From NCBI GenBank assembly GCA_020054695.1, contig JAHXBT010000016.1, forward strand, positions 101,680 through 165,679: a DNA stretch of 64,000 nt, given 5' to 3'. This DNA is from Rickettsiales bacterium. Its GTDB lineage: Bacteria > Pseudomonadota > Alphaproteobacteria > Rickettsiales > UBA1997. The notes beneath the pieces are model-generated. The model made no database searches, had not been told where the DNA came from, and saw only the letters and a program-made list of their open reading frames with translations. This document shows, piece after piece, positions 5,114 through 41,958 of the stretch (positions within the stretch are counted from its first letter, which is position 1; each line of letters starts with the position of its first letter). The position numbers and the translations under genes are program-made.

Positions 5114-5147
5114 GTATCATTTTAAAATACATTTAATTTATATAATT

Positions 5148-25457: not shown

Positions 25458-26225
25458 ATGACCGAATTAAAAAATTTTAAAAATACTAAAAAAAAATCAT
25501 CAACAAAGATTTATAAAAAGAAAGGTCTGCTAGTAAAAAAATTTAAAAATTACAAATCAAGGAGTTACTCATTTTCAAGATCATTTATTGCATTAATATT
25601 TTTACTGGTTGGAATTGGCGGAACTTTATTAATGCATAGCTTTGCACATAAGATAGATAATAATTCTCATAAAAAAGTATTGGTGCATGATCAGCAGATA
25701 AAAATGCTACAAGCTTGGCAAAATGATGTTAATGAGTGGATAAAGAAATCTCGTACAAAGAAAATGTATAGGTCAGATAAATTCTTTGATGATTTTTATT
25801 TGGATTCATTTGTTCCATTTTCTAATATGGGCGATGTCAACAAAAGAATAAGAGAAAGATTCTCCAACTTTGACCAATTATTTAATAATCATTTTGATGG
25901 CTATAGGAGATCCAATCACTCACCTCTTTCTAGCAGAGCGTATATTTCTCAAAAGGAAGATGATGAATTTATTTATTATCAGCTAAATTTTAGGGGATTT
26001 TCTAAGGATGGTATATCTGTAAAAATTGAGGATGGGTTGATAACCTTCTTTTCAAAAAGGATAGAGGATAGTACATCGGAAGATAATAATTTTAAATCGC
26101 GATCAAAAATAGAGTCAAATTTCTTTTATTCATTTTTAGTTCCAAAAAATATTGATCTATATAATCCTGAGATAATCAGAGAGCGCGGTAAAATAATTGT
26201 TAAATTCAAAAAGAATAAAGATTAA
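25458..26225 (+). CDS. Membrane-anchored Hsp20/alpha-crystallin-domain-like protein
   Basis: 255 aa. Lys-rich N-terminus, one TM segment (FIALIFLLVGIGGTLLMHSF), and a C-terminal ACD-like pattern ISQKEDDEFIYYQLNFRGFSKDGISVKIEDGLITF...FFYSFLVPKNIDLYNPEIIRERGKIIVKFKK. Confidence 0.65.
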   Translation: MTELKNFKNTKKKSSTKIYKKKGLLVKKFKNYKSRSYSFSRSFIALIFLLVGIGGTLLMHSFAHKIDNNSHKKVLVHDQQIKMLQAWQNDVNEWIKKSRTKKMYRSDKFFDDFYLDSFVPFSNMGDVNKRIRERFSNFDQLFNNHFDGYRRSNHSPLSSRAYISQKEDDEFIYYQLNFRGFSKDGISVKIEDGLITFFSKRIEDSTSEDNNFKSRSKIESNFFYSFLVPKNIDLYNPEIIRERGKIIVKFKKNKD

Positions 26226-26402: not shown

Positions 26403-27437
26403 TTATATTTTTCCTGATTTTTTCATTAGGTAAGTAATATTAATAAAAGAATTGAAAATATTTTGGCAATTTTCATAATCTTTTTTACATTTAATTTCAA
26501 TTTCTTGTAATCTCATCATAATTTTTTCAATCGAGTTAATTTGCCAAATTTTATGATGCTTTCTAAAAAAATCTTGTTCTTTAAAAAATATTCTCTGGGA
26601 TTTCATTTCTATTTCTAGGTTACTTCCTTCTTTAATTGCTACAGCAATTTTATATAATTTAAAAAAGTAATTTTGTAAATATCTCAGAATAACAACTGGG
26701 TTAATCTTTTGATAGTAAATTTGATCTAAAATTGTAACTGTTTTTTTTAAATCTAAAGCAACAAAATTATTAACAAATTCATTGATAGTAACCTCCGAAA
26801 TATCGGAAAATAAATTTTGAACAATGTCCAAAGTAAGATATTTTTCTTCGTCTAAATAGGTAATTACTTTATTAATTTCATTAAGAATAATTAGTCTATT
26901 CTTGCCAAATTTACTATTAATATATTCAATTACGCCAGATTCAATTTTAATGTTTTTTTTAGTAAATTCAGAACGAATTATGTTGGAAATAGTAGCGACA
27001 TTGTCTTCATAACATGCAATTGTTGCGATTTTTGGAGATTTTTCAGAAAGTTTTCTAAGGGAAGATGTGTTATCTAATTCTCCTGCTATAAGTAAGATAA
27101 AATTATCACTTTTGGATTCTACCTCGAATAGAGATTTGATATTTTTAGTAATTTTATTATTTGCTTGATCAATTTTAATTAATTTACGATCAGGTCCAAA
27201 CATTGACATTGAAAAAAACTCATCAAATAAAATATTTCCATTTTCTTCAATTCGTTTGGTAGAAATATCACTAAAAGCAAAAGGGTTGGAAGAGTCTGTA
27301 ATAATTTTTTTAGCAATTTCTTTTGATCTAATTGAAACTAAACCAGATTCTGGACCAAAAATTAAGGCAGCAGAAATATCCTTATTTTTGTCTATATTTC
27401 TAATAAACTCATCTATCTTAAAAGGAGGTATTTTCAT
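26403..27437 (-). CDS. holA: DNA polymerase III delta subunit
   Basis: Start placed at the internal ATG 27437 (MKIPPFKIDEF...AALIFGPESGL); the longest ORF reaches 27491. Length and helical C-terminus fit HolA. Confidence 0.72.
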   Translation of the reverse strand: MKIPPFKIDEFIRNIDKNKDISAALIFGPESGLVSIRSKEIAKKIITDSSNPFAFSDISTKRIEENGNILFDEFFSMSMFGPDRKLIKIDQANNKITKNIKSLFEVESKSDNFILLIAGELDNTSSLRKLSEKSPKIATIACYEDNVATISNIIRSEFTKKNIKIESGVIEYINSKFGKNRLIILNEINKVITYLDEEKYLTLDIVQNLFSDISEVTINEFVNNFVALDLKKTVTILDQIYYQKINPVVILRYLQNYFFKLYKIAVAIKEGSNLEIEMKSQRIFFKEQDFFRKHHKIWQINSIEKIMMRLQEIEIKCKKDYENCQNIFNSFINITYLMKKSGKI

Positions 27438-27761
27438 AATTGAGCAAGAGATCCGTTTCGATTCACTTCTAAATTGGCATCTTTTGTACACAATTTTGGT
27501 CTATATGTCATATCGAATAAGTTTTTGTTCACTATTTCCTATAGTTGCATTGTATCATCAGTAGCTTTTTTATTTTAATAAGATCTCGATCTATTTAAAA
27601 TAACTTTCTTAGATTGTCACTATCTACTATAGTGGTAATTAGTTCCTGCTAGTTTTTTTAATTTTGGTGGCAGTGTTAATCAACTAAGTATAATAATTTT
27701 ATTCAAGGATTGAATTTTAAATCATATTATTTATATTTACTAGGTAATTTAATAATATTCT

Positions 27762-29048: not shown

Positions 29049-30134
29049 TTGTATAATAAAATATTTTCCAATCTACTATTAAAAATTAAGATAGGCTTTT
29101 TTTTATTATTATTTGCCCATCTATCCATAGCCGAGGAATCTAAGTATATCATCAGTAATATTACAATTAATGAATCTGCTGAATCTGCCAGCAAAGCTCA
29201 AGAAATTGCTAATATCAATGCTAATAGAGAGGCTTTTCTCAGGTTACTTAAGAAATTATCAATTAATGAATCATTTTCTGATTATATTGATGATGATCAG
29301 TTGGAAGAGGCAATTTATGCTAAAACTATTTCTAATGAAAAGATAGCTGATAGTTGGTATAAGGCAACATTTAATATAGAATTTACAAAAGGTTATATTG
29401 ATAATTTATTAGAAAGTAAGGATTTTGGTTTGGATCTTGATCTGAGTAAAAAATATTTAATATTTCCAATCCAAATTTTAGATTCACAATCCAAAATATG
29501 GCATAATAACAATACGTGGTTTAATGCTTGGCGTTCTGTGCTATCAGAAAATGAGTCAGAAGTTATTAAAATTCCTGCCGGTGATATTGACGACATATCA
29601 CTTTTAAAATCGTTTGATTTAGAAACTATAAAATATCTTGATATCAAAGATATTGTTAAAAAATATAATTCTAAAGTTGCTGTTTTTATTGATATCTATA
29701 TTGATCATTTAGAAAACAATGTTGCTATCAATATTACTATGGTTAAAAAATTTACCAAGAAGAATATAAGGCTTAGCTTTGTTAATATTAATGATATCAA
29801 AAAGGAGAGATTGTATAATATTATTGTCCAAAAAATTATTGAATATTTAAGTGAAAAAGATCTCTCGGAAGTTGATAAACAATATAAAAAGAAAGATAGC
29901 AATAATATTTATATAGATATATTACCATCTTCTTTAAAATCCTGGATTACTTTTGAAAAAAAACTTAAAAAAGTAAATAATCTTGATTTTAAAGTAATAT
30001 CAGTATCTGCAGATTTAATTAAATTATCAATCAAGCCGCTAGAAGGGGTGGATATTTTAAAATATCTAGAAGATTATGGTGTTTTTGTTGAAAAGAGTGA
30101 AGATAGTGCAATTTATTATATTGCGCTTGATTGA
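29049..30134 (+). CDS. Secreted hypothetical protein
   Basis: 361 aa with a TTG start. Signal peptide FFLLLFAHLSIAEE. No motif recognised. Confidence 0.6.
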   Translation: MYNKIFSNLLLKIKIGFFLLLFAHLSIAEESKYIISNITINESAESASKAQEIANINANREAFLRLLKKLSINESFSDYIDDDQLEEAIYAKTISNEKIADSWYKATFNIEFTKGYIDNLLESKDFGLDLDLSKKYLIFPIQILDSQSKIWHNNNTWFNAWRSVLSENESEVIKIPAGDIDDISLLKSFDLETIKYLDIKDIVKKYNSKVAVFIDIYIDHLENNVAINITMVKKFTKKNIRLSFVNINDIKKERLYNIIVQKIIEYLSEKDLSEVDKQYKKKDSNNIYIDILPSSLKSWITFEKKLKKVNNLDFKVISVSADLIKLSIKPLEGVDILKYLEDYGVFVEKSEDSAIYYIALD

Positions 30135-30147
30135 TAGCGCTTTTTTT
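30123..30147 (+). terminator. Rho-independent terminator candidate separating the upstream gene from the PKS block
   Basis: Stem gcgct (30123-30127) / agcgc (30136-30140), loop tgattgat (contains the stop codon), followed by ttttttt (30141-30147). Confidence 0.45.
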
Positions 30148-30513
30148 CAAAAAAACCTTCGATAACCTAGCTTTTATCTCAAAACATTCAAATTTATTAT
30201 TAATTTTAAAAGCTGGTTATGGTAAGTCATTAATAGAATTTTTTTATATCAAGATAATTTATATTTTTAAATCAATGATTGCCTAATAAGCTTGTGAAAT
30301 ACATTAATATTTATTATACAAGACATTTTAACTTAATTTGTATTAAAGTATATTAAGTTATAATTAAGTATCTCTTAAAGAAATCAACCAAATTGCTTGA
30401 ATTTTATATTTTAGAGTGCGATATTATTTTAATCTACAAATGAATTAAAATGTAAGTTTGTTACAAGTTTTGCATAGGGTAATATGAGTTTAAAAATGTA
30501 ATAACATAAAAAA

Positions 30514-33500
30514 GTGACTAAAAAAACCATTAAAAACAGCAAAAATTATTCTATCAATAAATTTCCAATAGCAATTATTGGAATGGGCGTAAGGTATCCT
30601 GGTAATATTTGTGGATCTGATGGATTATGGAAGGCTCTAATTGAAGGAAGAGATTCTATCACTAGTATCCCTGCTGATCGATGGAATATAGCAAAATATT
30701 ATGATCCAGATCCCAATAAATCAGATAAAATTAAAACTAAAAAAGGCGGATTTATCTCTGGCATGAAGAAGTTTGATGCTTCATTCTTTGATATTTACCC
30801 CAATATTGCTGAAAAATTAGATCCAAGACAAAGACATTTATTAGAAGTTGTGTATGAGTCTTTGGAGGATGCTAATATTACCATGGAGCAAATCAATAAT
30901 AGTAAAACATCTGTAATTACTGGTGTATTTTTAGGTGATGAAGGTAAAAAATATGCAGGTAGTGATATTTCTAATATTAATGCTCATAGTTTAATGGGTA
31001 GTTCTGATGTTACTGTTCCCGCTAGGATTGCTTATCAATTTAATCTTAAAGGACCTACTCTCTCAGTTGATACTGCTTGCTCATCATCTTTGGTAGCTGT
31101 GCAAATTGCTTGTAGTAATATTTGGCTTGGCGATGCTGATATGGCAATTGCTGGAGGTGTTAATATTATGTCCAGTCATGAGCATTTTATCGGTTTGTCC
31201 AAGGGTGGTTTTTTAAGCCCCGATGGCTATTGTAAAAGTTTTGATGCTGATGGCAAGGGCTATGTTCGTGGTGAGGGTGCTGGTGTTGTAATTTTGAAGC
31301 CTTTGGATCAGGCCGAAAAGGATGGTAATAATATTTACGCAGTCATTAAAAATGCTGTAGTTAATTTTGATGGTTATACTAAAGATGGCATGACTGTTCC
31401 AAATGAATTTGCTCAACAAAAAATGTTGGAGGATGCTTATAGTGGAGCAAATATTGATCCAAGTGAAGTTGATTATGTAGAGGCTCACGGTACTGGTACT
31501 ATAGTTGGAGATCCTAAAGAATGTACAGCCTTTGGTCATGTTTTTGCTAAGGATAGAGATGTTAAAAAACCTTTAATTATTGGTTCAATTAAAAGTAATA
31601 TTGGTCATACTGAAGCTGTTGCAGGTATTGCTGGTTTAACCAAATTAGCACTTTGCATTAAAAATAAGCAAATTCCTCAAAATTTACATTTTAACAATCC
31701 TAATCCCAAGATTAAATTTGATGAGTGGAAGTTAAAAGTACCAACCAAATTAATGAATTGGCCAGGTAAAAAAGACAAAAAGGCAATTGCTGGTGTTAAT
31801 TCTTTTGGTGCTGGCGGTACTAATGCTCATATTGTTTTAGAAGAATATATTTCTGATTTTCAACAGGAATTATCAAAACAAGATAAGAATGAATATAATT
31901 TTCCTTATGTTTTTTCATTATCAGCAGCTTCTCTGGAATCCTTAAAAAAACTGGCCGAAAGATATATAGATTTTATTAATAATTCTCAAGATGATCTATT
32001 AGATATTTGTTATTCTATTCTTAAAAACAGATCTAATTTGAAAGAAAAATTAGTAATAATTTGTAATTCAAAAGAAGATTTAATCAAAAAATTATCTTTA
32101 TATATATCTGATAGTAAAAATCCCCAAATTATTACTGGCAAGACTAAAAAAGATGAAAAATTAAAAATTGCCTTTATTTGCTCAGGTCAAGGTCCTCAAT
32201 GGTATGGAATGGGCAGGCAATTAATGGCAAAATCACAAATATTTGCTGACATTTCTAACAAAATTGACAGAATATTCTTTAAAATTGCTGGCTATTCAAT
32301 TTTAGAAGAAATGAGTAAAGATTCTGCTGATTCTAAAATATCTGAAACTAGAATTGCACAACCAGCAATAATGATCATACAAATTGGTTTAATTGAAATT
32401 TGGAAATCTTTTGGGATTGATCCTGATGGCATAGTTGGTCATTCAATAGGTGAAGTTGCTGCGGCTTATGGCGCTGGCTCTCTTAATTTAGAACAGGCGG
32501 TTAATGTTATTTATAATAGGTCAAAGGAGCAAGATAAGGCCTCTGGTAAAGGTAAAATGTTAGCAACCTCATTACCACTTTCAAAATCAATACAAATTAC
32601 CCAAAAATATAACAATCAAGTTTCAATTGCCGCTCTTAACGGTCCAGAATCAACAGTTTTATCAGGTGATATTGTGCCTTTGGAGGAAATTGCTCAGGAG
32701 TTGGAGGAAAAAGAAATATTTAACCGCTTCTTAAAAATTAATGTTCCTTTTCATAGTCATTATATGGAAATGACTAAGGAAGAAATGCTAAAATCTTTAA
32801 AAGATTTAGAACCTAAAAGAGCTAACATTTCTTTATATTCAACAGTAACTGGTTTGAAAGAAAGTGGCTTAAATTTAAATGCCAATTATTGGTATAAAAA
32901 TGTTAGAGATACAGTTTATTTTGTTAATGCCATCGAGAAAATGATCAATGATGGTTTTAATTATTTTATCGAGATTGCGCCACATCCTATTTTGGGTGCT
33001 GGAGTTAATGATATGTTATCTGTTCAGAAAAAAGATGGCTATGTTATATCCTCTCTTTCTAGAAATATCAAAAACTTTGAGGCAGGAATTGAATATGAGG
33101 TTAATGATATTTTATCTGCTACTGCTAAGACCCAAATAGCAACTCAAAAAGTCAATTTACTTAATATTTATAAACAATATAATCCCAAATCAATTAAACT
33201 ACCAAATTACATTTGGAATCATAAGGAATATTGGTCTGAAAGCAAAGAACATGAGATATCTAGGTTAAAAAAGCAAAAACATCCTTTTATTAAAAATATA
33301 ATTAAAAGCTTAAGTGATAAAAATTCTGCTATTATAGAATTAGATCTTAACCCTAATAAACATCTATTTTTAAATGATCATAAAATTGATGGGGTAATAG
33401 TTATACCAGGTACCGCACATTTTGAAATTGCAACCGCAATTGGCAAAGAAATTTATGGCGATAAGTTTTCACATTTAGAAGATATTCATTTTAAAAAGGC

Positions 33501-36500
33501 TTTATTTTTACCAGATGATGGTTATATAGAGGCAAGATTAGAGTTAAAATCATCAGGAAAATATACTATTCATAGCAAATTAAATAATAAGTGGACTAAT
33601 AATAGTAGCGGTAAAATATGTCATAGTAATAAAAAACAAGTTAAGAAATTTGAAAAATTAGAAGATCTAAAAAAAAGAATTAATAAAGAATTATCAAAAA
33701 AAGAATTTTATAATAAGTTGCAAGAAAGAGGTTTATTTTATGGAGCTAATTTTAGAATAGCACAAAAGATATATTGTAATGAAAATGAAATTTTATCCGA
33801 AATAGGAATAGATAAAAATCAAGAAATTGACGAATATAATGTTATTCCAAATATATCAGATTGCTGTTTACATACAATTTTATCTAATAATATTAATAAT
33901 ATATATTTACCCGATAGGTTTAATAAAATTACAATCTTTAATAAACCAACAAAAATTGTATTTAGCTATATTAGAATTATCAAACATAGTACAAAATTTT
34001 TATTGGGTGATATATTTGTGTATGACTACAAAGGTAACCCGGTATTTTGCATTGAAGGTATGCAGCTAAAACTACTAGAAAATTTTAGCAAAAAAAAACA
34101 GAATCATAATTATGAGTTCCAGTGGTTTAAATCAGATATTTCAATTAATAATAAGGCTGTAGATAAAAATTTTTATATTATAATTTTTATAAATAACAAT
34201 CTAATAAATTTATTAGGTGATAAATTATTAGATATTGGGAATAACATAATATTTATTAATAAGGGTATCAAATTCAAAAAAGAATCTGAATATAATTATA
34301 TTATCAATCCAAATTCTCAAGAGGATTTTAGTAGACTATTCCATCATCTGGCAAAAGAAAATGTCAATATTGCAAAAATAATTAATTTTTGGCCAATTGA
34401 TGGTATAATTAGCAATAATGACAATTGTTACAAATTAAGTCAAGAATCACAAAATTTACTTCTTCCAAATCTTTATTTATTACAAGAAATAGCAAAATTT
34501 GAAAATAATAAAATATATCTCTATCAAATTACTCAAAATGCTGACATAGTTGACGATAAAAAAGATAAAAATATAAATTTTTTACAAGGATCGCTATATG
34601 GTATGGGTCGAGTCTTTATGAATGAATATCCTAATCATCACATAAGGATGATTGATATTGGTTGTCCTAAAATAGAAGATAACATTAATCTCATAATAGC
34701 TGAAATTAATAAGGAAGAACAAATACCTTATGAGACAGAAATAGCAATTAGGGATTACGGTAGATTTGCTCGTAAATTAGTTGAATTTGATCAAAAAAAA
34801 CAGCCTAATAGGGATTTAGCATTTACACCGAATTCAACCTATTTAATTACTGGTGGGCCCAGCGGACTTGGTCTTACTTTGGCTCAGTGGCTTTTTGAAG
34901 AAAAAAACATCAAAAATTTTGCTCTAATGAGTAGATCAGGACCAAAATATGATCAAGATAAGAAAATTATTTCCCAGATGCAGCAAAAGGGAGCAAATAT
35001 TATTTGGCAAGAAGTAATAGCTGATGTAACTAAAGAAAATGAGGTACAAAAAGCCATAGATTATATTAAAGATAATATGCCGCCTTTAAAGGGCATTATC
35101 CATTCTGCTGGATTATTGGATGATTCTTCTATTCCTAATATGAATAAAGAAAAATTCTTTAAAATATTTAATCCCAAAGCCTTAGGGGGGTGGAATTTAC
35201 ATAGAGCAACCTTAGATATTAAATTAGATTTATTTTTATTAATATCCTCAGTTTCTTCAATTATTGGAATTGCTGGACAAACAAATTATTCTTCAGCTAA
35301 TAATTTTTTAAATTATTTATCTCTTTACAGGAATTGTAGCAATGAGAGTTCTAGAGCTATTTGTTTTGGCATGTTATCAGGTTCTTTTGCTGGAATGTCA
35401 AAACAGCAATCTGGCTTAGAAGATTTAACCGCCAAAACAGTAGGACTGATTGCGATGGATAAAAAATTGATGTTAAATAGCATGGAAGATACTTTATACA
35501 ATTCTAATTCATGTTATTATATGATATCTTCTATGAATTGGAGCATATTCTTTGAATCACATTCAGCATCTAGTAATATATTATTATTAGGTGACATATT
35601 GAAGAATAATTCTAAAATATTAAATAAAAAATTACTACCTATAGAAAAAATATTATCCAGTAAAAATGAGGATGCAATAGATCTAATTAAAAATTCAATT
35701 AAAAATATTCTAACAAAAATATTGGGAACATCCATGAATGAGATAGACTCTAATATATCCATATCTAATCTAAATTTAGATTCATTAATGCTTAATCAAC
35801 TTCGCAGCTCCATTCAATCTGAATTTGAATTGTCAATACCGCTAATGCAACTAGTCAAAGGACCAAACATAAATGAGCTGTCTAGAAAAATATTAAAAAC
35901 TATATTGCAACAAGAAAAGGTTGATTATTTTAACGATTCGGATATAGAAATATCAAAGAATAAGTGGTTAATAAAAAGAAAAAATTCACATAAAACAAAA
36001 TATAAAATAATTTGCCTCCATCCAGTTGGTGCTGGGGCATCTATTTTTAGTCATTTTATTTTTAATCCTCCCAAAAATACGCAAATTATTGCCTTACAAA
36101 TGCCAGGTAGAGAAAATAGAATGGATGAAGATTATTATTATAATAATATGGAAAAATTAGTAGAAGATCTATCTAATCAAATAATAGCGGAAATATCTGG
36201 TCCAACAATATTTTGGGGCCATAGTTGGGGCGGTGTAACGCTTTATGAGGTAATAAAATATTTACGCCGTAATAATATTAAAGAATATCAAAATATTAAA
36301 CAATTAATAGTAACAGGTTCAATTGCACCACAATTAACATTACCTTGGAAGGATAGAGATTCTATTAAACAAACAGCAAGAAAAGATAATACTATAGATA
36401 AAATATTATCAACAGTTTCATATATTGATGATGAAAATTATTTGCGCAGCATAATACCGATCATGAAAAAAGATATGGAAATGATAATGACTTATAAATA

Positions 36501-36705
36501 TAAGGAAGAAGAAAAATTAAATATACCCATTTTAGCTTTTGGCGCTAAAGAAGATGATGTAGTATTGTTAGATGAATTAAAAGAATGGGAAAAGCAAACA
36601 AATGATAATTTTCAATTATATGAGGTAAGTGGCGATCATTGGTTTTTAAGTAGAAATAAGGAGTTTATTACAGAAAAAATTGCAGAGAATATCATGGGGC
36701 TTTAA
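30514..36705 (+). CDS. Single-module type I polyketide synthase, KS-AT-DH-KR-ACP-TE
   Basis: 2063 aa with a GTG start; the first in-frame ATG already lies inside the KS motif IAIIGMGVRYPG. KS: DTACSSS (Cys189), EAHGTGT, NIGHTEAVAG. AT: GHSIGE (Ser644), VPFHSH. DH: HKIDGVIVIPG (His956) and DCCLH. KR: TGGPSGLG (~aa1445), LLDD, Y1592 in NYSSAN. ACP: LDSL (Ser1757). TE: ICLHPVGAGAS, GHSWGG (Ser1904), GDHWF. Confidence 0.95.
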   Translation: MTKKTIKNSKNYSINKFPIAIIGMGVRYPGNICGSDGLWKALIEGRDSITSIPADRWNIAKYYDPDPNKSDKIKTKKGGFISGMKKFDASFFDIYPNIAEKLDPRQRHLLEVVYESLEDANITMEQINNSKTSVITGVFLGDEGKKYAGSDISNINAHSLMGSSDVTVPARIAYQFNLKGPTLSVDTACSSSLVAVQIACSNIWLGDADMAIAGGVNIMSSHEHFIGLSKGGFLSPDGYCKSFDADGKGYVRGEGAGVVILKPLDQAEKDGNNIYAVIKNAVVNFDGYTKDGMTVPNEFAQQKMLEDAYSGANIDPSEVDYVEAHGTGTIVGDPKECTAFGHVFAKDRDVKKPLIIGSIKSNIGHTEAVAGIAGLTKLALCIKNKQIPQNLHFNNPNPKIKFDEWKLKVPTKLMNWPGKKDKKAIAGVNSFGAGGTNAHIVLEEYISDFQQELSKQDKNEYNFPYVFSLSAASLESLKKLAERYIDFINNSQDDLLDICYSILKNRSNLKEKLVIICNSKEDLIKKLSLYISDSKNPQIITGKTKKDEKLKIAFICSGQGPQWYGMGRQLMAKSQIFADISNKIDRIFFKIAGYSILEEMSKDSADSKISETRIAQPAIMIIQIGLIEIWKSFGIDPDGIVGHSIGEVAAAYGAGSLNLEQAVNVIYNRSKEQDKASGKGKMLATSLPLSKSIQITQKYNNQVSIAALNGPESTVLSGDIVPLEEIAQELEEKEIFNRFLKINVPFHSHYMEMTKEEMLKSLKDLEPKRANISLYSTVTGLKESGLNLNANYWYKNVRDTVYFVNAIEKMINDGFNYFIEIAPHPILGAGVNDMLSVQKKDGYVISSLSRNIKNFEAGIEYEVNDILSATAKTQIATQKVNLLNIYKQYNPKSIKLPNYIWNHKEYWSESKEHEISRLKKQKHPFIKNIIKSLSDKNSAIIELDLNPNKHLFLNDHKIDGVIVIPGTAHFEIATAIGKEIYGDKFSHLEDIHFKKALFLPDDGYIEARLELKSSGKYTIHSKLNNKWTNNSSGKICHSNKKQVKKFEKLEDLKKRINKELSKKEFYNKLQERGLFYGANFRIAQKIYCNENEILSEIGIDKNQEIDEYNVIPNISDCCLHTILSNNINNIYLPDRFNKITIFNKPTKIVFSYIRIIKHSTKFLLGDIFVYDYKGNPVFCIEGMQLKLLENFSKKKQNHNYEFQWFKSDISINNKAVDKNFYIIIFINNNLINLLGDKLLDIGNNIIFINKGIKFKKESEYNYIINPNSQEDFSRLFHHLAKENVNIAKIINFWPIDGIISNNDNCYKLSQESQNLLLPNLYLLQEIAKFENNKIYLYQITQNADIVDDKKDKNINFLQGSLYGMGRVFMNEYPNHHIRMIDIGCPKIEDNINLIIAEINKEEQIPYETEIAIRDYGRFARKLVEFDQKKQPNRDLAFTPNSTYLITGGPSGLGLTLAQWLFEEKNIKNFALMSRSGPKYDQDKKIISQMQQKGANIIWQEVIADVTKENEVQKAIDYIKDNMPPLKGIIHSAGLLDDSSIPNMNKEKFFKIFNPKALGGWNLHRATLDIKLDLFLLISSVSSIIGIAGQTNYSSANNFLNYLSLYRNCSNESSRAICFGMLSGSFAGMSKQQSGLEDLTAKTVGLIAMDKKLMLNSMEDTLYNSNSCYYMISSMNWSIFFESHSASSNILLLGDILKNNSKILNKKLLPIEKILSSKNEDAIDLIKNSIKNILTKILGTSMNEIDSNISISNLNLDSLMLNQLRSSIQSEFELSIPLMQLVKGPNINELSRKILKTILQQEKVDYFNDSDIEISKNKWLIKRKNSHKTKYKIICLHPVGAGASIFSHFIFNPPKNTQIIALQMPGRENRMDEDYYYNNMEKLVEDLSNQIIAEISGPTIFWGHSWGGVTLYEVIKYLRRNNIKEYQNIKQLIVTGSIAPQLTLPWKDRDSIKQTARKDNTIDKILSTVSYIDDENYLRSIIPIMKKDMEMIMTYKYKEEEKLNIPILAFGAKEDDVVLLDELKEWEKQTNDNFQLYEVSGDHWFLSRNKEFITEKIAENIMGL

Positions 36706-37441
36706 TCAATCTTTAACAAAATTATTAATAAATAATAAGTTTGTTAATTTAGATTTGATTCTAAATAATAAAAATAATAATTTTGCTGCCAATATTGCCT
36801 TTTGTAGCTCCGATTTATTTGGAGTTACAAAAAGTCAATTATTAAAATATTTATCAAAAGATGAGATTAAAGATTACAATAATTTAGAAAATGACTTTTT
36901 AAAGAAAAAATATTTAGATAGTAATGTCTGTGCCAAATATGCTATTTCTCAAATTGCCAAAATTGACGATTTGTCAAAAATTAAAATTCATAGAGGTATA
37001 TTTGGTCAGCCATATATCATTGCAGCAAAAACGCAAAAATTTGTAATTTCTATTGCTAATAAAGTAATTAATGGCAATAATATCACCTGCGCTATTGCCT
37101 TTGAACAACAATTTCCCATGGCCATTGATTTGGAGAATATGGATAATAAAAATAGCAGCCATATTGTAAGTCAAATGACAAATTTTGAAATAGAAAATTT
37201 TGGTGTATCGCATCAGGATTTAATTAGAATATGGAGTGCAAAAGAAGCTCTTAGTAAAGTAACATTATGTGGTTTAAATGCTAATTTTAAAATATTTGAG
37301 ATATCACAAATAATTCAATGCAACAATTATATTGAATATTATTTTAAGAACTTCTCTCAATATAAAGCTCATTCCAAAGTAATAGATAGTATACTTATTA
37401 CCATAATTTATCATAAAAATTATAATATTCGAAATAATTAA
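36680..37441 (+). CDS. Sfp-type 4'-phosphopantetheinyl transferase
   Basis: 253 aa. Motifs AIDLE and WSAKEALSK. There is no in-frame ATG before residue ~146, so the TTG at 36680 (26-nt overlap with the PKS 3' end) or another non-ATG codon must be the start. Confidence 0.85.
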   Translation: MQRISWGFNQSLTKLLINNKFVNLDLILNNKNNNFAANIAFCSSDLFGVTKSQLLKYLSKDEIKDYNNLENDFLKKKYLDSNVCAKYAISQIAKIDDLSKIKIHRGIFGQPYIIAAKTQKFVISIANKVINGNNITCAIAFEQQFPMAIDLENMDNKNSSHIVSQMTNFEIENFGVSHQDLIRIWSAKEALSKVTLCGLNANFKIFEISQIIQCNNYIEYYFKNFSQYKAHSKVIDSILITIIYHKNYNIRNN

Positions 37442-37443
37442 AT

Positions 37444-40400
37444 ATGGTTACTTTTACTCTAATATCATTTTTTATTACTTTTTGTACATGCTTCCTATTA
37501 TCAATATTACTCGTAACCTGTGGGAAGAAATATATACAATTTACAATATTTAATATTAATTTATGTATTTGGACTTTATTTAATATTTTATATATTTCTG
37601 CAGAATCATTTGAGTCGTCACTTATATATGCAAAATTTGCCAGCGCTTCCATTGTACTCATACCATATTTATTCTTTAAAACAACGCTATCACTTTCAAA
37701 CACAAGAATAAAGCCAATATATAATATAATAAATAATATTATTGCTATATCACTTTCGCTTTCAATGTTTACGGATCTGATGATAAGGGGGGTTAGACCT
37801 TTTATGGATTTTAAATTTGCACCAGAAGCAACTATGTTTTTTTACATATATTGCATATATCTTGTAATGGTAGTGGTAATTGGACATATATTTTTGTACA
37901 AATCTATTAAGTATAATTATAAAAATAAGTTTATATTTTATGCTTATATAATAGGATGGAGTGGAGGTGTGACAACCTTACCAGTTTATCTTGGAATTTC
38001 AATATATCCCTTCTCTGTAATATTGGTAGCAGTTTATACACTATTTGTATCATATGCCCTTATGCAACATAGAATACTTGGCCTTTACTTAACTATAATT
38101 AATTTATTGATAAAAGCATTATGCTTTGCAACGATATTCTTTTCTTATTTAATTTCTAAAAAAATATATGATTTAATATTTATAAATGATCATTATGCAT
38201 ATATTATATTTAACATGCTGTACATTATGTTTTCTATACAATTGTATCAAAGTTTAGTTCAGAAGTTAAAAGTAGTAACGGAAAAAATGGCATTAGGTAT
38301 ACCATATAATAAATTAGAGATAAGAAATAATATTGGTAAACATATATTAGATATTGTAGAAATTGATCAATTATCAAAACAAATAAAAAATATTATTGAA
38401 AAACAAATAGGTGTTAAAACTATCTCTTTTTATGTTGCATCAGAATTAGGAATTAAAGAACATAATGATCCTAATATAAAATTTGTAAAATATTATGGTC
38501 AAGATATAGAAAGGAAGTATATAATAGAAATGCAGCGATCTATTCAGGATGAAAAATTCTCCCTATCAACAAAATTTAATGAAGTTGATTATAAATTCCG
38601 CAAAATAATGGGTGGCGCAGATTTTCAAGGATTAGTACCCTTTTTATATAATAATAAAGTTGTGGGCTTTTTGACTCTACAATCTCGCCCTAAAAAAAGA
38701 AATTATTTTTATTATGAAGATATGGAATTATTTGATGAAGTTTCTAATAAAACTGGCTTTGCCTTAGAAAGGGTTAGATTACATTTACAATTTATGGAGG
38801 AAAAGGAATTAGCATTAATATCTCTTGCTGGTTCTATTGCTCATGAATTGCGTAACCCACTTGGCGCAATTAAACTGACAACTGATAATTTAACCTCTAT
38901 AAAAGAAAATTCACGATGTGATGAGAATGTAAAAGAAGTAATTAATAAAGATAGTGAGTTTAAGGAAACAATAAATAATTCAGATATAAAAATTAATAAT
39001 TTTAAGAATCAAATTAATAAAACTATTGATTTAGCTACTGATATTATTGATATGACTTTGCATGAGATTAGTGGAAAAAGATTAACCAGGGAGGATTTTG
39101 ATTACTATTCTGCTAAAAAATCCGTCTTAGATGCTATAATGCTTTATGGTTATGATAGTAATGAAGAAAAAGATAAGGTTACTATTAATTTATCTGATGA
39201 TAAAAATATTACAGCAAGTAAGGCTGGCGATCAAACTATATCAGTAAATAATATTAAGGAAGATAATGATTTTATTATTTTAACCAATAACACTGGTTTT
39301 AAATATATAATTTTTAATTTAGTAAAAAATGCTTTATATTATTTAAGCAAATATCCAGATTCTGATATTGCCATTTCTTTTGAGAAGGAAAAAATAATTG
39401 ATCAAAAAACAATCAAAAAATTTAATATATCTAATCACAATATTAAAATAGAAGATTCAAAACCAAGCACTAATTTTAAAGGTATTTATAAATATAATGT
39501 TATTAATATTATTGACACCGGACCCGGAATTAAAGAAGAGATAATTACAAAAATTTTCCAACCATATACGTCTTATAAAAAAAATGGTACAGGAGTTGGT
39601 TTAGATTTTTGTAATAGAATGATGGGTAATTTTGGCGGCGCTATAATTTGTGAAAGTAAATTAGGAAAATATACTAAATTTAGTTTATTATTTCCAATAT
39701 TGTCAGAACAAGAAGAGAAAGTTGCAATTGGTCAAATTTTAGAGCTTGAAGATAAAATTGCACAAGCAGAGAAAAAAGGAGAGAATCTATCATATGTAGA
39801 AAAATCTTTGGAGAAAAAACCTAAAAAGAATATTTTACTTATTGATGATGTTAAGGTTAATATTGATATATTGGCCAGGGATTTAAAAAATAAATGCCCT
39901 AATTTTGAAGTTGTTATTATGACTTGTCCGGTTGAAGCATTTAAATTAATTAAAGTTAAGCAAGAGGAAGATGAGCAGTTTGATTTAATTCTTACAGATA
40001 TTGAAATGCCTTTAATGAATGGCATAGATTTAATTAATAAAGTTAGAAATGAATTAAAAATCTCAAAATATGATTTGCCTATCTTGGTTTATGGTTCTCG
40101 TGAAGATAAGATAACTATTAATGAAGCTCTAGATGCCGGTTGTAATTCTTATTATATGAAGCCAAAAGATTTAAGATTTATTGCTAGAAATATTTCTAAA
40201 TGGGTTTTAAATGATTATATGCCATCTAAGACTATTAATAATAAGGAAATTATTATTAATAATCAGACTTTAAAAGACCTTAATATTATCATAGCTGATG
40301 ATCAATTAATGAATTTAATGTTGGTATCTAATAAAATTTCTAATGCCGGTGCTAATATTTTTAAATGTAATGATGGTGGGGATATAATAAAATTAATGAC

Positions 40401-41055
40401 AGAAGATCCAGATAAATACCATCTGATTATTACAGATATTAATATGAAAAGAATAGGTGGTATTGAGGCGGCAATGAAGGTTAGAAATATTGAAGCTAAA
40501 CATAATAAGCAGTATAATAGTGATAATAAAATACCCATCATTGCCCTTTCTGGTGATAATGATCAAAAATTTGTTATGAATTTATTAAATAATTCAATTG
40601 ATGATTACATGATTAAGGGTAGTGATCCTAAAAATATTATTAAATTATCAAGATTTTGGGTCGATTATAGGTTTTGTAACCACGATATATTATCCAAAGA
40701 TAATAAACATAATGGCAATAATATATTAAGAAGTGATTTTATATCATTATTTTCTAACAAATCTAGTGCTATAAAAGTCATTAATGTTTTTAAGAAAGAG
40801 TCAGATAGTATTATTCAGGAAATAAGAGGTAATAAAACAGATGTGGTTGAATTACAAAAATCAATTCACAAATTAAAAGGTTCTTCAGATTTAATTGCTA
40901 CTAGAAAATTATTTGAATATTTATCAGAAATTAATATTATTACTAAAGATGGTAAATTACCTGATAATAATAATTTTGATAGTATAATTGAAGAGTATGT
41001 TAATGAAGCGATAGACATTATGAAGTTAGAAATAAAGCGTAATTTCCAAATTTAA
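37444..41055 (+). CDS. Hybrid sensor histidine kinase: ~8-9 TM sensor, GAF-like, HisKA, HATPase_c, REC, REC, HPt
   Basis: 1203 aa. Hydrophobic N-terminal ~270 aa ending YALMQHRILGL. H-box SIAHELRNPLGAI (His467). N-box NLVKNALYY; G1 DTGPGI (~aa691); G2 GTGVGL. REC1 LILTDIEMP (Asp852), YMKP. REC2 LIITDINM (Asp998). HPt SIHKLKGSS (His1142). Confidence 0.92.
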   Translation: MVTFTLISFFITFCTCFLLSILLVTCGKKYIQFTIFNINLCIWTLFNILYISAESFESSLIYAKFASASIVLIPYLFFKTTLSLSNTRIKPIYNIINNIIAISLSLSMFTDLMIRGVRPFMDFKFAPEATMFFYIYCIYLVMVVVIGHIFLYKSIKYNYKNKFIFYAYIIGWSGGVTTLPVYLGISIYPFSVILVAVYTLFVSYALMQHRILGLYLTIINLLIKALCFATIFFSYLISKKIYDLIFINDHYAYIIFNMLYIMFSIQLYQSLVQKLKVVTEKMALGIPYNKLEIRNNIGKHILDIVEIDQLSKQIKNIIEKQIGVKTISFYVASELGIKEHNDPNIKFVKYYGQDIERKYIIEMQRSIQDEKFSLSTKFNEVDYKFRKIMGGADFQGLVPFLYNNKVVGFLTLQSRPKKRNYFYYEDMELFDEVSNKTGFALERVRLHLQFMEEKELALISLAGSIAHELRNPLGAIKLTTDNLTSIKENSRCDENVKEVINKDSEFKETINNSDIKINNFKNQINKTIDLATDIIDMTLHEISGKRLTREDFDYYSAKKSVLDAIMLYGYDSNEEKDKVTINLSDDKNITASKAGDQTISVNNIKEDNDFIILTNNTGFKYIIFNLVKNALYYLSKYPDSDIAISFEKEKIIDQKTIKKFNISNHNIKIEDSKPSTNFKGIYKYNVINIIDTGPGIKEEIITKIFQPYTSYKKNGTGVGLDFCNRMMGNFGGAIICESKLGKYTKFSLLFPILSEQEEKVAIGQILELEDKIAQAEKKGENLSYVEKSLEKKPKKNILLIDDVKVNIDILARDLKNKCPNFEVVIMTCPVEAFKLIKVKQEEDEQFDLILTDIEMPLMNGIDLINKVRNELKISKYDLPILVYGSREDKITINEALDAGCNSYYMKPKDLRFIARNISKWVLNDYMPSKTINNKEIIINNQTLKDLNIIIADDQLMNLMLVSNKISNAGANIFKCNDGGDIIKLMTEDPDKYHLIITDINMKRIGGIEAAMKVRNIEAKHNKQYNSDNKIPIIALSGDNDQKFVMNLLNNSIDDYMIKGSDPKNIIKLSRFWVDYRFCNHDILSKDNKHNGNNILRSDFISLFSNKSSAIKVINVFKKESDSIIQEIRGNKTDVVELQKSIHKLKGSSDLIATRKLFEYLSEINIITKDGKLPDNNNFDSIIEEYVNEAIDIMKLEIKRNFQI

Positions 41056-41061
41056 GCAAAT

Positions 41062-41958
41062 ATGACAAATAAAAAATTAATTTTATCTTCCTTATCGGTA
41101 ATAATTATAGCTATTATTTTTGCTACATTATATAAATATTTTTATCCTGATAATGTTAAATTAGAACAAAAACATATAATAGTTAAAAAAGACAGTAAGG
41201 ATATTATTATAGCAACTTTTGGTAATGGAAAATCTATTACTAAGGCACAATTAGAAACAGAAATAGAGAAAATATATATACAAAATCCAAAGCTAAGGAA
41301 TGTGGAATTTAATAATTTACCTTTTTCCCAAAAAGAATCTATTATTAGACAAATTATTCTTAAAGAATTAAGTTATAAACAAGCTAAAAGACAGAATATT
41401 CACAGATCTAATGAATATAAAAAAACAAAAAGATTGTTTGAAAAAGAATTATTGCAGCAAAAATTATTTGTTGCCATTTCTCAAGATGCATCTTCGGAAG
41501 AAAGATTGCAAAAAAAATATGACGAACTTAAAACAGATTTGCAAGATAAAAAGGAAGTAAGAATTAGATATATTGCATTAAAAACAGAGAAGGAAGCAAA
41601 GTCCCTTTATAAAAAATTAAAGAGAAATCCAGAATCATTTGCTAGTCAGGCTAAGAGCAAATCGATTGATAAATCTACTTCAGATAATGGTGGTGATTTA
41701 GGTTTTGTTGTTGAGAGTAATTTGCCAGAAAACATTACAAAGGAAATTAATAAATTAAAAAAAGGTAAAATATCTAAGGCATTTAAGATTGATAATGTAA
41801 ATTGGATAATTATCAAGCTAGAGGAGAGAAGAAAAGCAAAAGTGCCTGAATTTAATGATATAAGAGAAAAATTAGTTAAAGATTTGGGTAATGAAGCAAT
41901 AGAAAAATTCGCTACATCTAGTTTAGATAGTGCTAATATTAAGATTTTGCTAAAATAA
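41062..41958 (+). CDS. Membrane-anchored parvulin (PpiC-type) peptidyl-prolyl isomerase
   Basis: 298 aa. N-terminal TM segment, SurA/PpiD-like helical part, and a parvulin core with GGDLGFV. Confidence 0.8.
   Translation: MTNKKLILSSLSVIIIAIIFATLYKYFYPDNVKLEQKHIIVKKDSKDIIIATFGNGKSITKAQLETEIEKIYIQNPKLRNVEFNNLPFSQKESIIRQIILKELSYKQAKRQNIHRSNEYKKTKRLFEKELLQQKLFVAISQDASSEERLQKKYDELKTDLQDKKEVRIRYIALKTEKEAKSLYKKLKRNPESFASQAKSKSIDKSTSDNGGDLGFVVESNLPENITKEINKLKKGKISKAFKIDNVNWIIIKLEERRKAKVPEFNDIREKLVKDLGNEAIEKFATSSLDSANIKILLK

What the first reader, a model, noticed from the sequence alone, without database searches (positions are those of the whole stretch)
30514..41958. Self-contained PKS / PPTase / hybrid sensor kinase / parvulin block: candidate PKS-based make-and-sense signalling module
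Seen in sequence:
- Four same-strand genes have near-zero junctions. The PPTase TTG at 36680 overlaps the PKS 3' end by 26 nt. The kinase ATG at 37444 lies 2 nt after the PPTase stop. The parvulin ATG at 41062 lies 6 nt after the kinase stop.
- The block is insulated upstream by a hairpin plus T7 terminator (30123-30147) and a 379-nt spacer, and downstream by a 483-nt non-coding spacer.
- Everything around it is core metabolism and no other secondary-metabolism gene is in the window.

Established knowledge: a small-molecule synthase encoded next to a multi-TM hybrid kinase is the layout of the CqsA/CqsS and LqsA/LqsS alpha-hydroxyketone autoinducer systems.

Inference: the PKS product, activated by its own PPTase, may be sensed by the adjacent kinase. 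The kinase ends in an HPt domain and has no DNA-binding partner in the window, so output would go through a phosphorelay encoded elsewhere. A type I PKS wired this way in a small AT-rich genome would be unusual.
Basis: partly seen in the sequence, partly recalled or inferred. Interest (0 to 1): 0.85.

Follow-up and report, generated by a model that had tools for sequence, protein, structure and literature searches.

The report
Polymorphic PKS–kinase signalling module
An uncultured marine alphaproteobacterium carries a polyketide synthase, its activating enzyme and a membrane sensor kinase as one conserved unit, and strains of one species carry very different matched versions of it, as in bacterial "dialect" signalling systems, but no experiment has yet shown that the kinase senses the synthase's product.

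Summary
The four genes, their near-zero junctions, the upstream terminator hairpin and the housekeeping surroundings are all as described. The evidence fits a make-and-sense reading for three of the four genes. PKS, Sfp-type PPTase and a multi-TM/GAF hybrid kinase stay together, at most 11 nt apart, in at least eight diverged lineages. Their flanks differ and in one lineage the gene order is permuted. The parvulin occurs only in the window's own species.

The main new result concerns strains that are 99.5% identical in the flanks. They differ by a roughly 5-kb hypervariable cassette: PKS DH-KR-ACP, the PPTase and the kinase's sensor domain. Amino-acid identity there is 31-65% and dS is about 1.2, against 0.005-0.06 in the flanks. 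KS-AT, the TE core and the kinase transmitter stay 96-100% identical. The window's cassette allele is closer to that of another lineage (70-88%) than to its conspecific.

One lineage has lost PKS and PPTase and also carries a frameshift in the kinase. The kinase's transmitter relatives elsewhere sit beside signal synthases such as LuxM.

This resembles agr/comQXP pherotype polymorphism, but built on a type I PKS. Ligand sensing itself is inferred. The kinase is not a CqsS or LuxN family member.

The parts
30123..30147 (+). Intrinsic-terminator-like hairpin (GCGCT-loop-AGCGC) plus T7 ending the upstream DUF2066-like gene. It marks the 5' limit of the block.
   Evidence: Terminator scan; sequence.
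30148..30513 (+). AT-rich spacer upstream of the PKS, presumed to hold its promoter. It is nearly identical to conspecific L001 and does not align convincingly with L010.
   Evidence: No significant promoter or repeat signal.
30514..36705 (+). Single-module cis-AT type I PKS of 2063 aa with no ER and no loading module. Domains in window coordinates: KS 30565-31692, AT 32173-33105, DH 33280-34083, structural KR about 34177-34500, KR 34834-35376, ACP 35698-35886, TE 36004-36690.
   Evidence: Pfam. Motifs: C189, HGTGT, NIGHT, GHSIG, VPFHS, H956xxxGxxxxP, D1116, LDD, Y1592, LDSLM, GHSWG, GDHW. Closest solved relatives are modular PKS and MAS-like synthases.
33201..36090 (+). Hypervariable block 1, covering PKS DH, structural KR, KR, ACP and the start of TE. 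Nucleotide identity to conspecific L001 is 48-78%, against 99.5% in the flanks.
   Evidence: dS 1.27 against 0.02 in KS-AT.
36680..37441 (+). Sfp-type 4'-phosphopantetheinyl transferase of 253 aa. Its TTG start overlaps the PKS by 26 nt.
   Evidence: Pfam ACPS 33 bits. A PPTase is present in every intact copy of the module.
36681..38763 (+). Hypervariable block 2, covering the last PKS codons, the whole PPTase and kinase residues 1-440 (membrane sensor plus GAF). Nucleotide identity to L001 is 58-61%.
   Evidence: dS 1.15-1.24.
37444..41055 (+). Hybrid sensor histidine kinase of 1203 aa. Regions in window coordinates: membrane region with 9 predicted helices and a beta-hairpin loop 37444-38292, GAF 38311-38703, DHp/CA (H467) 38713-39813, REC1 (D852) 39832-40176, REC2 (D998) 40270-40641, HPt (H1142) 40714-41052.
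   Evidence: Pfam; family alignment; AlphaFold model with pLDDT 83; Foldseek GAF hits.
41062..41958 (+). Membrane-anchored parvulin-type PPIase of 298 aa. It is probably co-transcribed here but is a lineage-specific neighbour, not part of the conserved module.
   Evidence: Pfam Rotamase. Present in L001, L002 and L011 only; absent after the kinase in L003/L092, L007, L008, L009 and L010.

Best explanation
The conserved unit is three genes, PKS, PPTase and kinase, most likely transcribed as one operon. In this species the parvulin is appended.

Proposed mechanism:
1. The Sfp-type PPTase converts the PKS ACP to its holo form.
2. The ER-less MAS/FAS-like single-module PKS builds a lipophilic carboxylic acid or lactone from malonyl units, either on a fatty-acyl primer or iteratively. 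The product is hydroxylated or unsaturated, and the TE releases it.
3. The product is recognised by the kinase's own sensor, a 9-helix membrane region plus GAF domain.
4. Binding switches a H467 -> D852 -> H1142 phosphorelay, with a second receiver at D998, to a response regulator encoded elsewhere.

The locus exists as deeply diverged alleles in which the PKS tailoring and carrier domains, the PPTase and the sensor domain differ together, while the catalytic KS-AT, the TE core and the kinase transmitter stay constant. I read these alleles as specificity groups (pherotypes): different strains make and hear different variants of the signal.

Shown: gene anatomy, conservation of the trio, allelic structure, co-variation in one allele pair, co-decay.

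Inferred: that the product is the kinase's ligand, what the product is, that the alleles differ in signal specificity, and co-transcription.
For: 1. Linkage. The kinase family is small: 16 relatives in 5.8 billion proteins, and 16 sensor relatives at E<1e-30 among 1.84 billion representatives.
- Every intact copy examined lies at most 11 nt from, or overlapping, a PPTase or PKS gene of this PKS clade. These copies are L001, L003/L092, L007, L008, L009, L010 and L093.
- Their flanks are unrelated: lysC/esterase, argG-fumC/DAHP synthase, sdh operon, ABC-F/thioredoxin, ankyrin.
- In L008 the order is PKS-kinase-PPTase.
- In the reverse direction, all six examined proteins among the ten best PKS hits are next to the kinase.
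- Kinases in a related single-cell genome that share the transmitter at 52-53% identity but carry other sensors (dCache and others) are not next to a PKS.

2. Allelic cassette, window against conspecific L001.
- Flanks are 99.5% nt identical over 18 kb, and flanking proteins are 99-100% identical.
- Amino-acid identity is DH 48%, structural KR 55-57%, KR 65%, ACP region 34%, PPTase 31-33% and sensor 43-44%.
- KS-AT is 99%, the TE core 96-100% and the transmitter 99% identical.
- dS in the cassette is 1.15-1.27, against 0.005-0.057 in the conserved parts. These are therefore old alleles, not locally accelerated protein evolution.
- Three sensor alleles, 41-44% identical to each other, share a 99% identical transmitter.

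3. Co-variation. The window's allele matches L010, which is another lineage (KS-AT 83%, transmitter 53-55%, different downstream gene).
- Identities to L010 are DH 70%, structural KR 77-78%, KR 88%, ACP 72-73%, PPTase 78% and sensor 83%.
- dN/dS is about 0.2, so purifying selection acts within the allele class.
- Sensor allele C (L011) is 68% identical to that of L092, against 43% to conspecific allele B.

4. Co-decay. In L004-L006, which are identical in three samples, the PKS is reduced to a KS-N::TE-C out-of-frame remnant, the PPTase is gone, and the kinase has a frameshift at codon 24.

5. Kinase class.
- The best NCBIfam match is LuxN.
- Of 79 transmitter relatives, 64 have a same-strand gene ending within 400 nt upstream. 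These include LuxM AHL synthases, SAM/LCM methyltransferases and FabH-like ketosynthases.

6. A many-helix membrane sensor suits a lipophilic ligand.
Against: - There is no experimental datum of any kind. The product, its export, its binding and the transcript structure are all unknown.
- Full co-variation of PKS block, PPTase and sensor is documented for only one allele pair (window and L010). In L011 the PPTase is 91% identical to the allele-B type while the sensor is a different allele, so the PPTase is not strictly coupled to the sensor. L011's PKS is not on the contig.
- The parts of an iterative PKS usually credited with chain-length control (KS and TE) are the conserved parts, so it is unclear what chemical difference the alleles would encode.
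- The only Bacteroidota PKS relative examined (about 43% identity) has a PPTase but no kinase.
- The organism was recovered from the 0.22-0.45 um surface-ocean size fraction. Classical density-dependent quorum sensing is hard to picture for such cells.
- Several family members (P0006, P0011, P0012, P0014, P0028, P0031, P0033) could not be examined for context.
Confidence: 0.58

Rival explanations
1. The kinase is a cluster-situated regulator. It senses some other cue, environmental or envelope-related, and controls expression of the PKS operon through a distant response regulator. The PKS product is a metabolite with a non-signalling role, such as a lipid, antibiotic or siderophore-like compound.
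For: - Biosynthetic gene clusters often carry two-component regulators (general knowledge).
- PKS-PPTase occurs without a kinase in the Bacteroidota relative examined.
- The broader HisKA_7TM-GAF sensor family is widespread, with 873 representatives at E<=1e-3 and no known ligand.
Against: - This reading does not predict that the sensor domain, and only the sensor, is replaced together with the PKS tailoring domains while the transmitter stays 99% identical.
- It does not predict trans-lineage sharing of the whole cassette.
- No DNA-binding regulator is linked in any of the eight contexts.
Confidence: 0.2
2. The locus is a replacement-type flexible island under phage, grazer or host-driven diversifying selection. 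The PKS makes a surface or membrane lipid, and the multi-pass membrane domain of the kinase is itself an exposed target or monitors that lipid in the membrane. The variability would then reflect an arms race, not signal specificity.
For: - dS is saturated in the cassette while the flanks are near identical, as in replacement islands of marine bacteria (general knowledge).
- The module sits at different chromosomal sites in different lineages.
- L010 begins with what looks like the 3' end of a tRNA.
Against: - The cytoplasmic GAF domain (residues 290-440) is as variable as the membrane helices.
- The cytoplasmic PPTase and ACP vary too.
- The breakpoints fall at domain borders: AT/DH, within TE, and GAF/DHp.
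- There are no glycosyltransferase, export or lipid-attachment genes in the module.
Confidence: 0.14
3. The adjacency has no functional meaning. The genes are neighbours through compaction of a small genome, and the variability reflects assembly chimeras.
For: Small AT-rich genomes have many short junctions. All relatives are metagenome or SAG contigs.
Against: - The same trio occurs in at least eight lineages with different flanks and one permuted order.
- Allele A was seen in NCBI, ENA, Logan and Tara assemblies.
- Allele B is 100% identical over 6.8 kb in two independent runs.
- The decayed copy is identical in three samples.
Confidence: 0.03

Closest known systems
CqsA/CqsS (Vibrio) and LqsA/LqsS (Legionella) alpha-hydroxyketone systems
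   Same: - A signal synthase gene lies directly beside a polytopic membrane histidine kinase that senses a lipophilic product.
- CqsS, like this kinase, is a hybrid with a receiver domain.
- JGI labels several family members 'CqsS'.
   Different: - The synthase here is a 2063-aa type I PKS with its own PPTase, not a PLP-dependent acyl-CoA transferase.
- The sensor has 9 predicted helices plus GAF and matches Pfam HisKA_7TM, not a 6-TM sensor joined directly to DHp.
- The kinase has two receivers plus an HPt domain.
- No CqsA-type gene is adjacent to the kinase in the window or in any intact module copy.
LuxM/LuxN (Vibrionaceae)
   Same: - LuxN is the best NCBIfam match of the kinase.
- LuxN is also a many-helix membrane receptor kinase with a receiver, encoded next to its synthase. 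Transmitter relatives L061, L065, L078, L079 and L086 sit beside LuxM genes.
   Different: - The score is 135 bits against a cut-off of 1550, and the match covers only the CA-REC part.
- The sensor is unrelated in sequence.
- The signal would be a polyketide, not an acyl-homoserine lactone.
agr (Staphylococcus) and comQXP (Bacillus) pherotype loci
   Same: - A hypervariable segment bounded by conserved sequence spans the signal-producing gene(s) and the sensor domain of the receptor kinase, while the kinase's catalytic part stays conserved.
- There are several alleles per species, and allele classes are shared across species.
   Different: - Those signals are ribosomal peptides in Gram-positive bacteria. 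Here the signal maker is a type I PKS in an alphaproteobacterium.
- Cross-activation or cross-inhibition between alleles is untested.
RpfF/RpfC (DSF, cis-2-unsaturated fatty acids) and PhcB/PhcS (methyl 3-hydroxy fatty acids)
   Same: - A fatty-acid-like signal is sensed by a multi-TM hybrid kinase; RpfC carries REC and HPt domains.
- An ER-less KS-AT-DH-KR-ACP-TE acting on an acyl primer would give 3-hydroxy or 2-enoyl acids of the same chemical class (inference from domain content and memory of these systems).
- SAM/LCM methyltransferase-kinase pairs occur among the transmitter relatives.
   Different: - The synthase families are different: crotonase in DSF systems, methyltransferase in Phc systems.
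- There is no sequence relationship between the sensors.
- The product here is unknown.
MAS-like / FAS-like single-module iterative type I PKS (e.g. mycocerosic acid synthase)
   Same: - The condensing and modifying domain order is the same.
- Strong sequence matches to MAS, Pks16-type and modular PKS structures.
- Relatives in L009 and L093 keep the ER domain.
   Different: - The window enzyme lacks ER.
- It carries a C-terminal TE.
- It has a dedicated PPTase and a kinase partner.

Membership tests
cis-AT type I polyketide synthase (single module) | KS, AT, ACP domains with catalytic Cys-His-His, GHSxG and phosphopantetheine Ser; optional DH/KR/TE with their motifs | tested here: met
   Pfam. 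Motifs: C189, H325, H365, S644, H956, D1116, Y1592, LDSLM, S1904, H2042.
Sfp-type 4'-phosphopantetheinyl transferase | ACPS superfamily domain, about 230-250 aa two-lobed protein | tested here: met
   PF01648 33.1 bits against cut-off 25. Weak AusB-like NCBIfam hit. Orthologues in all module copies carry PF01648.
Hybrid histidine kinase with HPt (multistep phosphorelay) | H-box His, N/G boxes, receiver Asp, HPt His | tested here: met
   Invariant in the family alignment: H467, N625/N629, DxGxG/GTGxGL, D852 with K906, D998 with K1058, H1142-x-LKG. Pfam Hpt is significant in homologues but is not reported for the window protein at E<=0.01.
CqsS / LqsS family | Six-TM sensor joined directly to DHp | tested here: not met
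   9 predicted helices plus a GAF domain before DHp. Pfam HisKA_7TM (39.8 bits in L093).
CqsS / LqsS family | Adjacent CqsA/LqsA PLP-dependent synthase | tested here: not met
   The genes adjacent to the kinase are PKS and PPTase in the window and in every intact copy.
LuxN | Score above the NCBIfam LuxN_Vibrio cut-off; adjacent LuxM | tested here: not met
   135 bits against cut-off 1550; the match covers residues 682-870 only.
Pherotype-type polymorphic signalling locus (agr / comQXP-like) | Hypervariable segment covering the signal-producing genes and the receptor sensor domain, with conserved flanks and a conserved kinase core | tested here: met
Pherotype-type polymorphic signalling locus (agr / comQXP-like) | Allele classes shared across species and discordant with the rest of the locus | tested here: met
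   Window allele against L010, and allele C against L092. Only two such cases.
Pherotype-type polymorphic signalling locus (agr / comQXP-like) | Each allele's signal activates only its own receptor | not testable with these tools
   Needs metabolite isolation and kinase assays.
Parvulin-type PPIase as part of the module | Conserved association with the trio | tested here: not met
   The Rotamase domain is present, but the gene follows the kinase only in the window's species (L001, L002, L011). It is absent there in six other lineages.

The most novel reading that the evidence does not exclude
This is a previously undescribed class of cell-cell signalling system. A type I PKS acts as the autoinducer synthase and is wired to a dedicated 9-helix/GAF hybrid kinase. 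The system is maintained as multiple mutually exclusive specificity alleles (pherotypes) within single species of streamlined, uncultured marine alphaproteobacteria. This would be a Gram-negative, polyketide-based counterpart of agr/comQXP, and it would imply kin discrimination or private communication in small planktonic cells.
Probability: 0.4. Interest if true: 0.9.

Novelty: new variant of a known kind. Interest (0 to 1): 0.8.

Why it matters
- Known membrane-kinase quorum-sensing systems use small dedicated synthases (LuxM, CqsA, PhcB, RpfF). A modular-type PKS in that role would add a new chemical class of bacterial signal.
- The allelic cassette offers a natural experiment. The same KS-AT/TE scaffold is combined with swapped DH-KR-ACP domains and swapped sensors, which could show how polyketide structure and receptor specificity co-evolve.
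- Pherotype-like polymorphism has been described for peptide signals in Firmicutes. Finding it in abundant, uncultured, small-genome marine alphaproteobacteria would bear on whether oligotrophic plankton engage in social or kin-specific behaviour.
- The module has three genes and no accessory tailoring enzymes, so it is small enough for direct heterologous testing.

Tried and rejected
- An exact look-up of the window kinase found nothing. The nearest cluster representative is 99% identical.
The allele sample therefore stays small.
- The genome-contig scan found only one further module copy, L012, whose PKS is broken into several ORFs in a pilon-polished assembly. This is ambiguous between decay and sequencing error.
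- Organism identification through UvrA gave only about 70% matches to MAGs labelled Rickettsiaceae, Pelagibacterales or Rickettsiales. No finer placement is possible.
- A search for a regulatory motif, repeat or RNA in the two spacers found nothing beyond AT-rich chance matches.
- Foldseek of the membrane region gave only weak generic 7TM (GPCR) similarities, with TM-scores of about 0.3. The afdb50 library was unavailable.
- Six literature searches found no description of a PKS-kinase signalling module or of this sensor family's ligand. One candidate paper was read and was irrelevant.
- I considered a 6-MSAS-type aromatic product, because the domain order KS-AT-DH-KR-ACP is the same. The nearest relatives are ER-containing MAS/FAS-like enzymes, which makes a reduced aliphatic product more likely, but the aromatic option is not excluded.
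- The Spearman table of segment identities over 21 pairs has the sensor correlating with the PPTase at 0.68 and with the transmitter at 0.07. I report it but give it no weight as a test, because the pairs are not independent.
Full report
**Observation**

The junctions are as described: a 26-nt overlap between PKS and PPTase, a 2-nt gap between PPTase and kinase, and a 6-nt gap between kinase and parvulin.

Pfam gives these domains:
- PKS: KS-AT-DH-(structural KR)-KR-ACP-TE.
- The 253-aa protein: ACPS.
- Kinase: HisKA_7TM (weak), HisKA, HATPase_c and two receiver domains.
- The last gene: Rotamase.

Every catalytic motif of the PKS is intact, including Cys189. The AT carries VPFHS where malonyl-specific ATs have HAFH. 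The KR has the LDD motif. There is no ER and no loading module.

The hairpin plus T7 at 30123-30147 is recovered by the terminator scan. The surrounding 64 kb encodes housekeeping and amino-acid, nucleotide and cell-wall biosynthesis genes, and holds no other receiver or kinase domain.

- HPt is not reported by Pfam for this protein. It is supported by the invariant H1142-x-LKG motif and by Hpt hits in homologues.
- There are two receiver domains.
- An AlphaFold model (pLDDT 83) shows nine helices in the membrane region with a beta-hairpin loop, followed by a cytoplasmic GAF domain before DHp.

**Organism**

The identical PKS occurs in Tara Oceans station 67 surface water, 0.22-0.45 um fraction, and in NCBI, ENA and Logan assemblies. 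The relatives are MAGs and SAGs labelled Rickettsiales bacterium. UvrA is only about 70% identical to anything named. GC content is about 28%. With its full biosynthetic gene content, this looks like a streamlined, free-living or loosely associated marine alphaproteobacterium.

**Conservation of the trio**

The kinase family is tiny: 16 relatives in 5.8 billion proteins. In every intact copy whose context could be read, the kinase lies next to a PKS of the same clade and a PPTase, with junctions of 11 nt or less, or overlapping.

| Locus | Kinase identity to window | Notes |
|---|---|---|
| L001/L002 | 79% | same species as the window |
| L010 | 63% | another lineage |
| L003/L092 | 54% | another lineage |
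| L007 | 37% | |
| L008 | 33% | order PKS-kinase-PPTase |
| L009 | 33% | Rickettsiales bacterium GCA_028122795.1 |
| L093 | not computed (gene cut by contig end) | PKS with ER |

The flanking genes differ in each lineage.

In the other direction, the ten best PKS hits form a distinct group (2123 bits or more, 49% identity or more). All six of those examined are next to the kinase. The next group consists of Bacteroidota KS-AT-DH-ER-KR-ACP-TE enzymes at about 43% identity. The one examined has a PPTase but no kinase.

Kinases that share the transmitter at 52-53% identity but carry other sensors (dCache and others) are not next to a PKS. The association is therefore with the sensor domain. The parvulin follows the kinase only in the window's own species.

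**The hypervariable cassette**

This is the main new finding. L001 comes from a strain whose flanks are 99.5% identical to the window over 18 kb, with flanking proteins 99-100% identical. Two adjacent blocks drop to 48-78% nucleotide identity:
- 33201-36090: PKS DH, structural KR, KR, ACP and the start of TE.
- 36681-38763: the PKS tail, the whole PPTase, and kinase residues 1-440, which form the membrane sensor plus GAF.

About 0.6 kb of TE core at 95-100% identity separates the two blocks.

Amino-acid identities, window against L001:

| Segment | Identity |
|---|---|
| DH | 48% |
| structural KR | 55-57% |
| KR | 65% |
| ACP region | 34% |
| PPTase | 31-33% |
| sensor | 43-44% |
| KS-AT | 99% |
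| TE core | 96-100% |
| transmitter | 99% |

Synonymous divergence is 1.15-1.27 inside the cassette and 0.005-0.057 outside it. These are therefore ancient alleles kept or exchanged at one locus, not a burst of protein evolution.

A third sensor allele (L011) is 41-44% identical to the other two, with the same 99% identical transmitter. Allele B is 100% identical over 6.8 kb in two independent sequencing runs, and allele A occurs in several sources. This excludes assembly chimeras.

**Co-variation**

L010 belongs to another lineage: KS-AT is 83% identical, the transmitter 53-55%, and the downstream gene is different. Yet its cassette matches the window's far better than the conspecific one does. 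Identities are DH 70%, structural KR 77-78%, KR 88%, ACP 72-73%, PPTase 78% and sensor 83%. dN/dS is about 0.2 and the sensor and PPTase dS is 0.49-0.50, against 0.75 for KS-AT and 1.03 for the transmitter. PKS tailoring domains, PPTase and sensor therefore travel together and are discordant with the transmitter.

Sensor allele C is likewise closer to L092's (68%) than to its conspecific allele B (43%).

There is a caveat. L011's PPTase is 91% identical to allele B's while its sensor differs, so the PPTase is not strictly tied to the sensor. L011's PKS is not on the contig.

**Co-decay**

In L004-L006, which are identical in three JGI samples, three things have happened:
- The PKS is reduced to a KS N-terminal fragment fused out of frame to the TE C-terminus (GDHWFLSRN...).
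- The PPTase is gone.
- The kinase reading frame breaks in a T9 run at codon 24.

The only kinase found without a PKS is thus a decaying locus.

**Kinase class**

The best NCBIfam match is LuxN, far below its cut-off. JGI labels some family members CqsS.

Of 79 transmitter relatives fetched from reference genomes, 64 have a same-strand gene ending within 400 nt upstream. These upstream genes form recurrent families:
- LuxM AHL synthases in Enterovibrio, Grimontia and Photobacterium.
- SAM/LCM methyltransferases in Chlorobi and alphaproteobacteria.
- FabH-like ketosynthases in Paraburkholderia, Ramlibacter, a Rickettsiales MAG and Berkiella.
- An unknown family of about 410 aa in Paraburkholderia.

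This kind of transmitter is therefore typically paired with a neighbouring small-molecule-making enzyme.

**Interpretation**

The best-supported reading is a make-and-sense module. The PPTase activates the PKS, the PKS releases a lipophilic hydroxy or unsaturated acid or lactone, and the kinase's membrane/GAF sensor recognises it. The signal then passes through H467 -> D852 -> H1142 to an unlinked regulator.

The allelic structure is the signature of specificity groups, as in agr and comQXP. That step is inference (confidence in sensing about 0.58, in pherotypes about 0.4).

Rivals:
- A cluster-situated regulator that senses another cue (0.2).
- A replacement island under arms-race selection on a surface lipid (0.14).
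- Meaningless adjacency (0.03).

The first two rivals do not explain why the cytoplasmic GAF, the ACP and the PPTase vary as much as the membrane helices, nor why the breakpoints fall at domain borders.

**Membership**

The PKS, the PPTase and the hybrid kinase core meet their family definitions. The kinase fails the CqsS and LuxN tests on sensor architecture, partner synthase and curated score. It works like those receptors but is not one of them. No paper describing such a module was found.

**Verdict**

I file it as a new variant of a known kind (synthase plus membrane-kinase signalling) with an unexpected pherotype-like polymorphism. Interest 0.8.

Noticed in passing
L004 9360-10010 (also L005 and L006): Decayed copy of the module, identical in three metagenomes. 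A KS N-terminal fragment is fused out of frame to the TE C-terminus, the PPTase is deleted, and the kinase is frameshifted in a T9 run at codon 24. The gene caller starts the kinase at an internal Met, giving 1045 aa.
   Followed up: yes
L015 766-4536; also L040, L045, L051, L053, L066, L077, L091: A FabH-like KS III gene of about 345 aa sits directly upstream of a hybrid kinase with a related transmitter. The pair occurs in Paraburkholderia, Ramlibacter, a Rickettsiales MAG and Berkiella. It may be a second, uncharacterised ketosynthase-based synthase/receptor pair.
   Followed up: partly
L020 8017-11905; L016 11183-15291; L069, L073, L082, L089: A SAM/LCM-type methyltransferase gene lies directly upstream of an HK-REC-HPt kinase in Chlorobi and alphaproteobacterial MAGs. 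From memory this layout recalls PhcB/PhcS; this was not tested.
   Followed up: partly
L032, L034, L037, L042, L044, L046-L049, L054, L056, L059 and others (16 loci): In Paraburkholderia, a conserved protein of about 410 aa with no Pfam or NCBIfam family precedes a related hybrid kinase. It is an unknown candidate synthase family.
   Followed up: no
L013 94-3953 and L084 29-3408: An uncharacterised protein of 333-340 aa, with a weak methyltransferase hit in L013, lies immediately upstream of a kinase that shares the window kinase's transmitter (53% identity in L013, about 29% in L084) but has a short, different N-terminal sensor.
   Followed up: partly
L010 1-32: The contig begins with GGTCGGCGGTTCGATCCCGTCATCACCCACCA, which looks like the 3' end of a tRNA cut by the contig edge, about 330 nt upstream of the PKS. 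This hints that the module sits at a tRNA-linked insertion site in that lineage. ARAGORN cannot call it.
   Followed up: partly
L009 about 4600-6100; L093; L007 (PKS alignment columns between DH and KR): Some PKS orthologues keep a full ER domain (L009, L093) and L007 keeps a truncated one. The window, L001, L010, L092 and L008 have none. The degree of reduction of the product therefore differs between lineages.
   Followed up: partly
L003 3002-9264 versus L092 10001-16270: The same PKS is split into two ORFs (406 and 1646 aa) in one assembly and intact (2089 aa) in another assembly of the same species. This is a frameshift or assembly error in L003. L012's PKS is likewise fragmented in a pilon-polished assembly.
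   Followed up: partly
window 51734-52753: An AI-2E family transporter (PF01594) lies about 10 kb downstream. It is a housekeeping-type permease family named after autoinducer-2 export. No link to the module was found.
   Followed up: no
window 22534-23328, 25458-26225, 26403-27491: Three ORFs of 255-362 aa near the block have no Pfam family at the thresholds used.
   Followed up: no
window 37398-37426: A promoter-like hexamer pair (TTACCA-17-TATAAT) lies just upstream of the kinase ATG, inside the PPTase gene. Such hits occur at chance frequency in this AT-rich DNA (117 found, 98 +/- 10 expected).
   Followed up: partly
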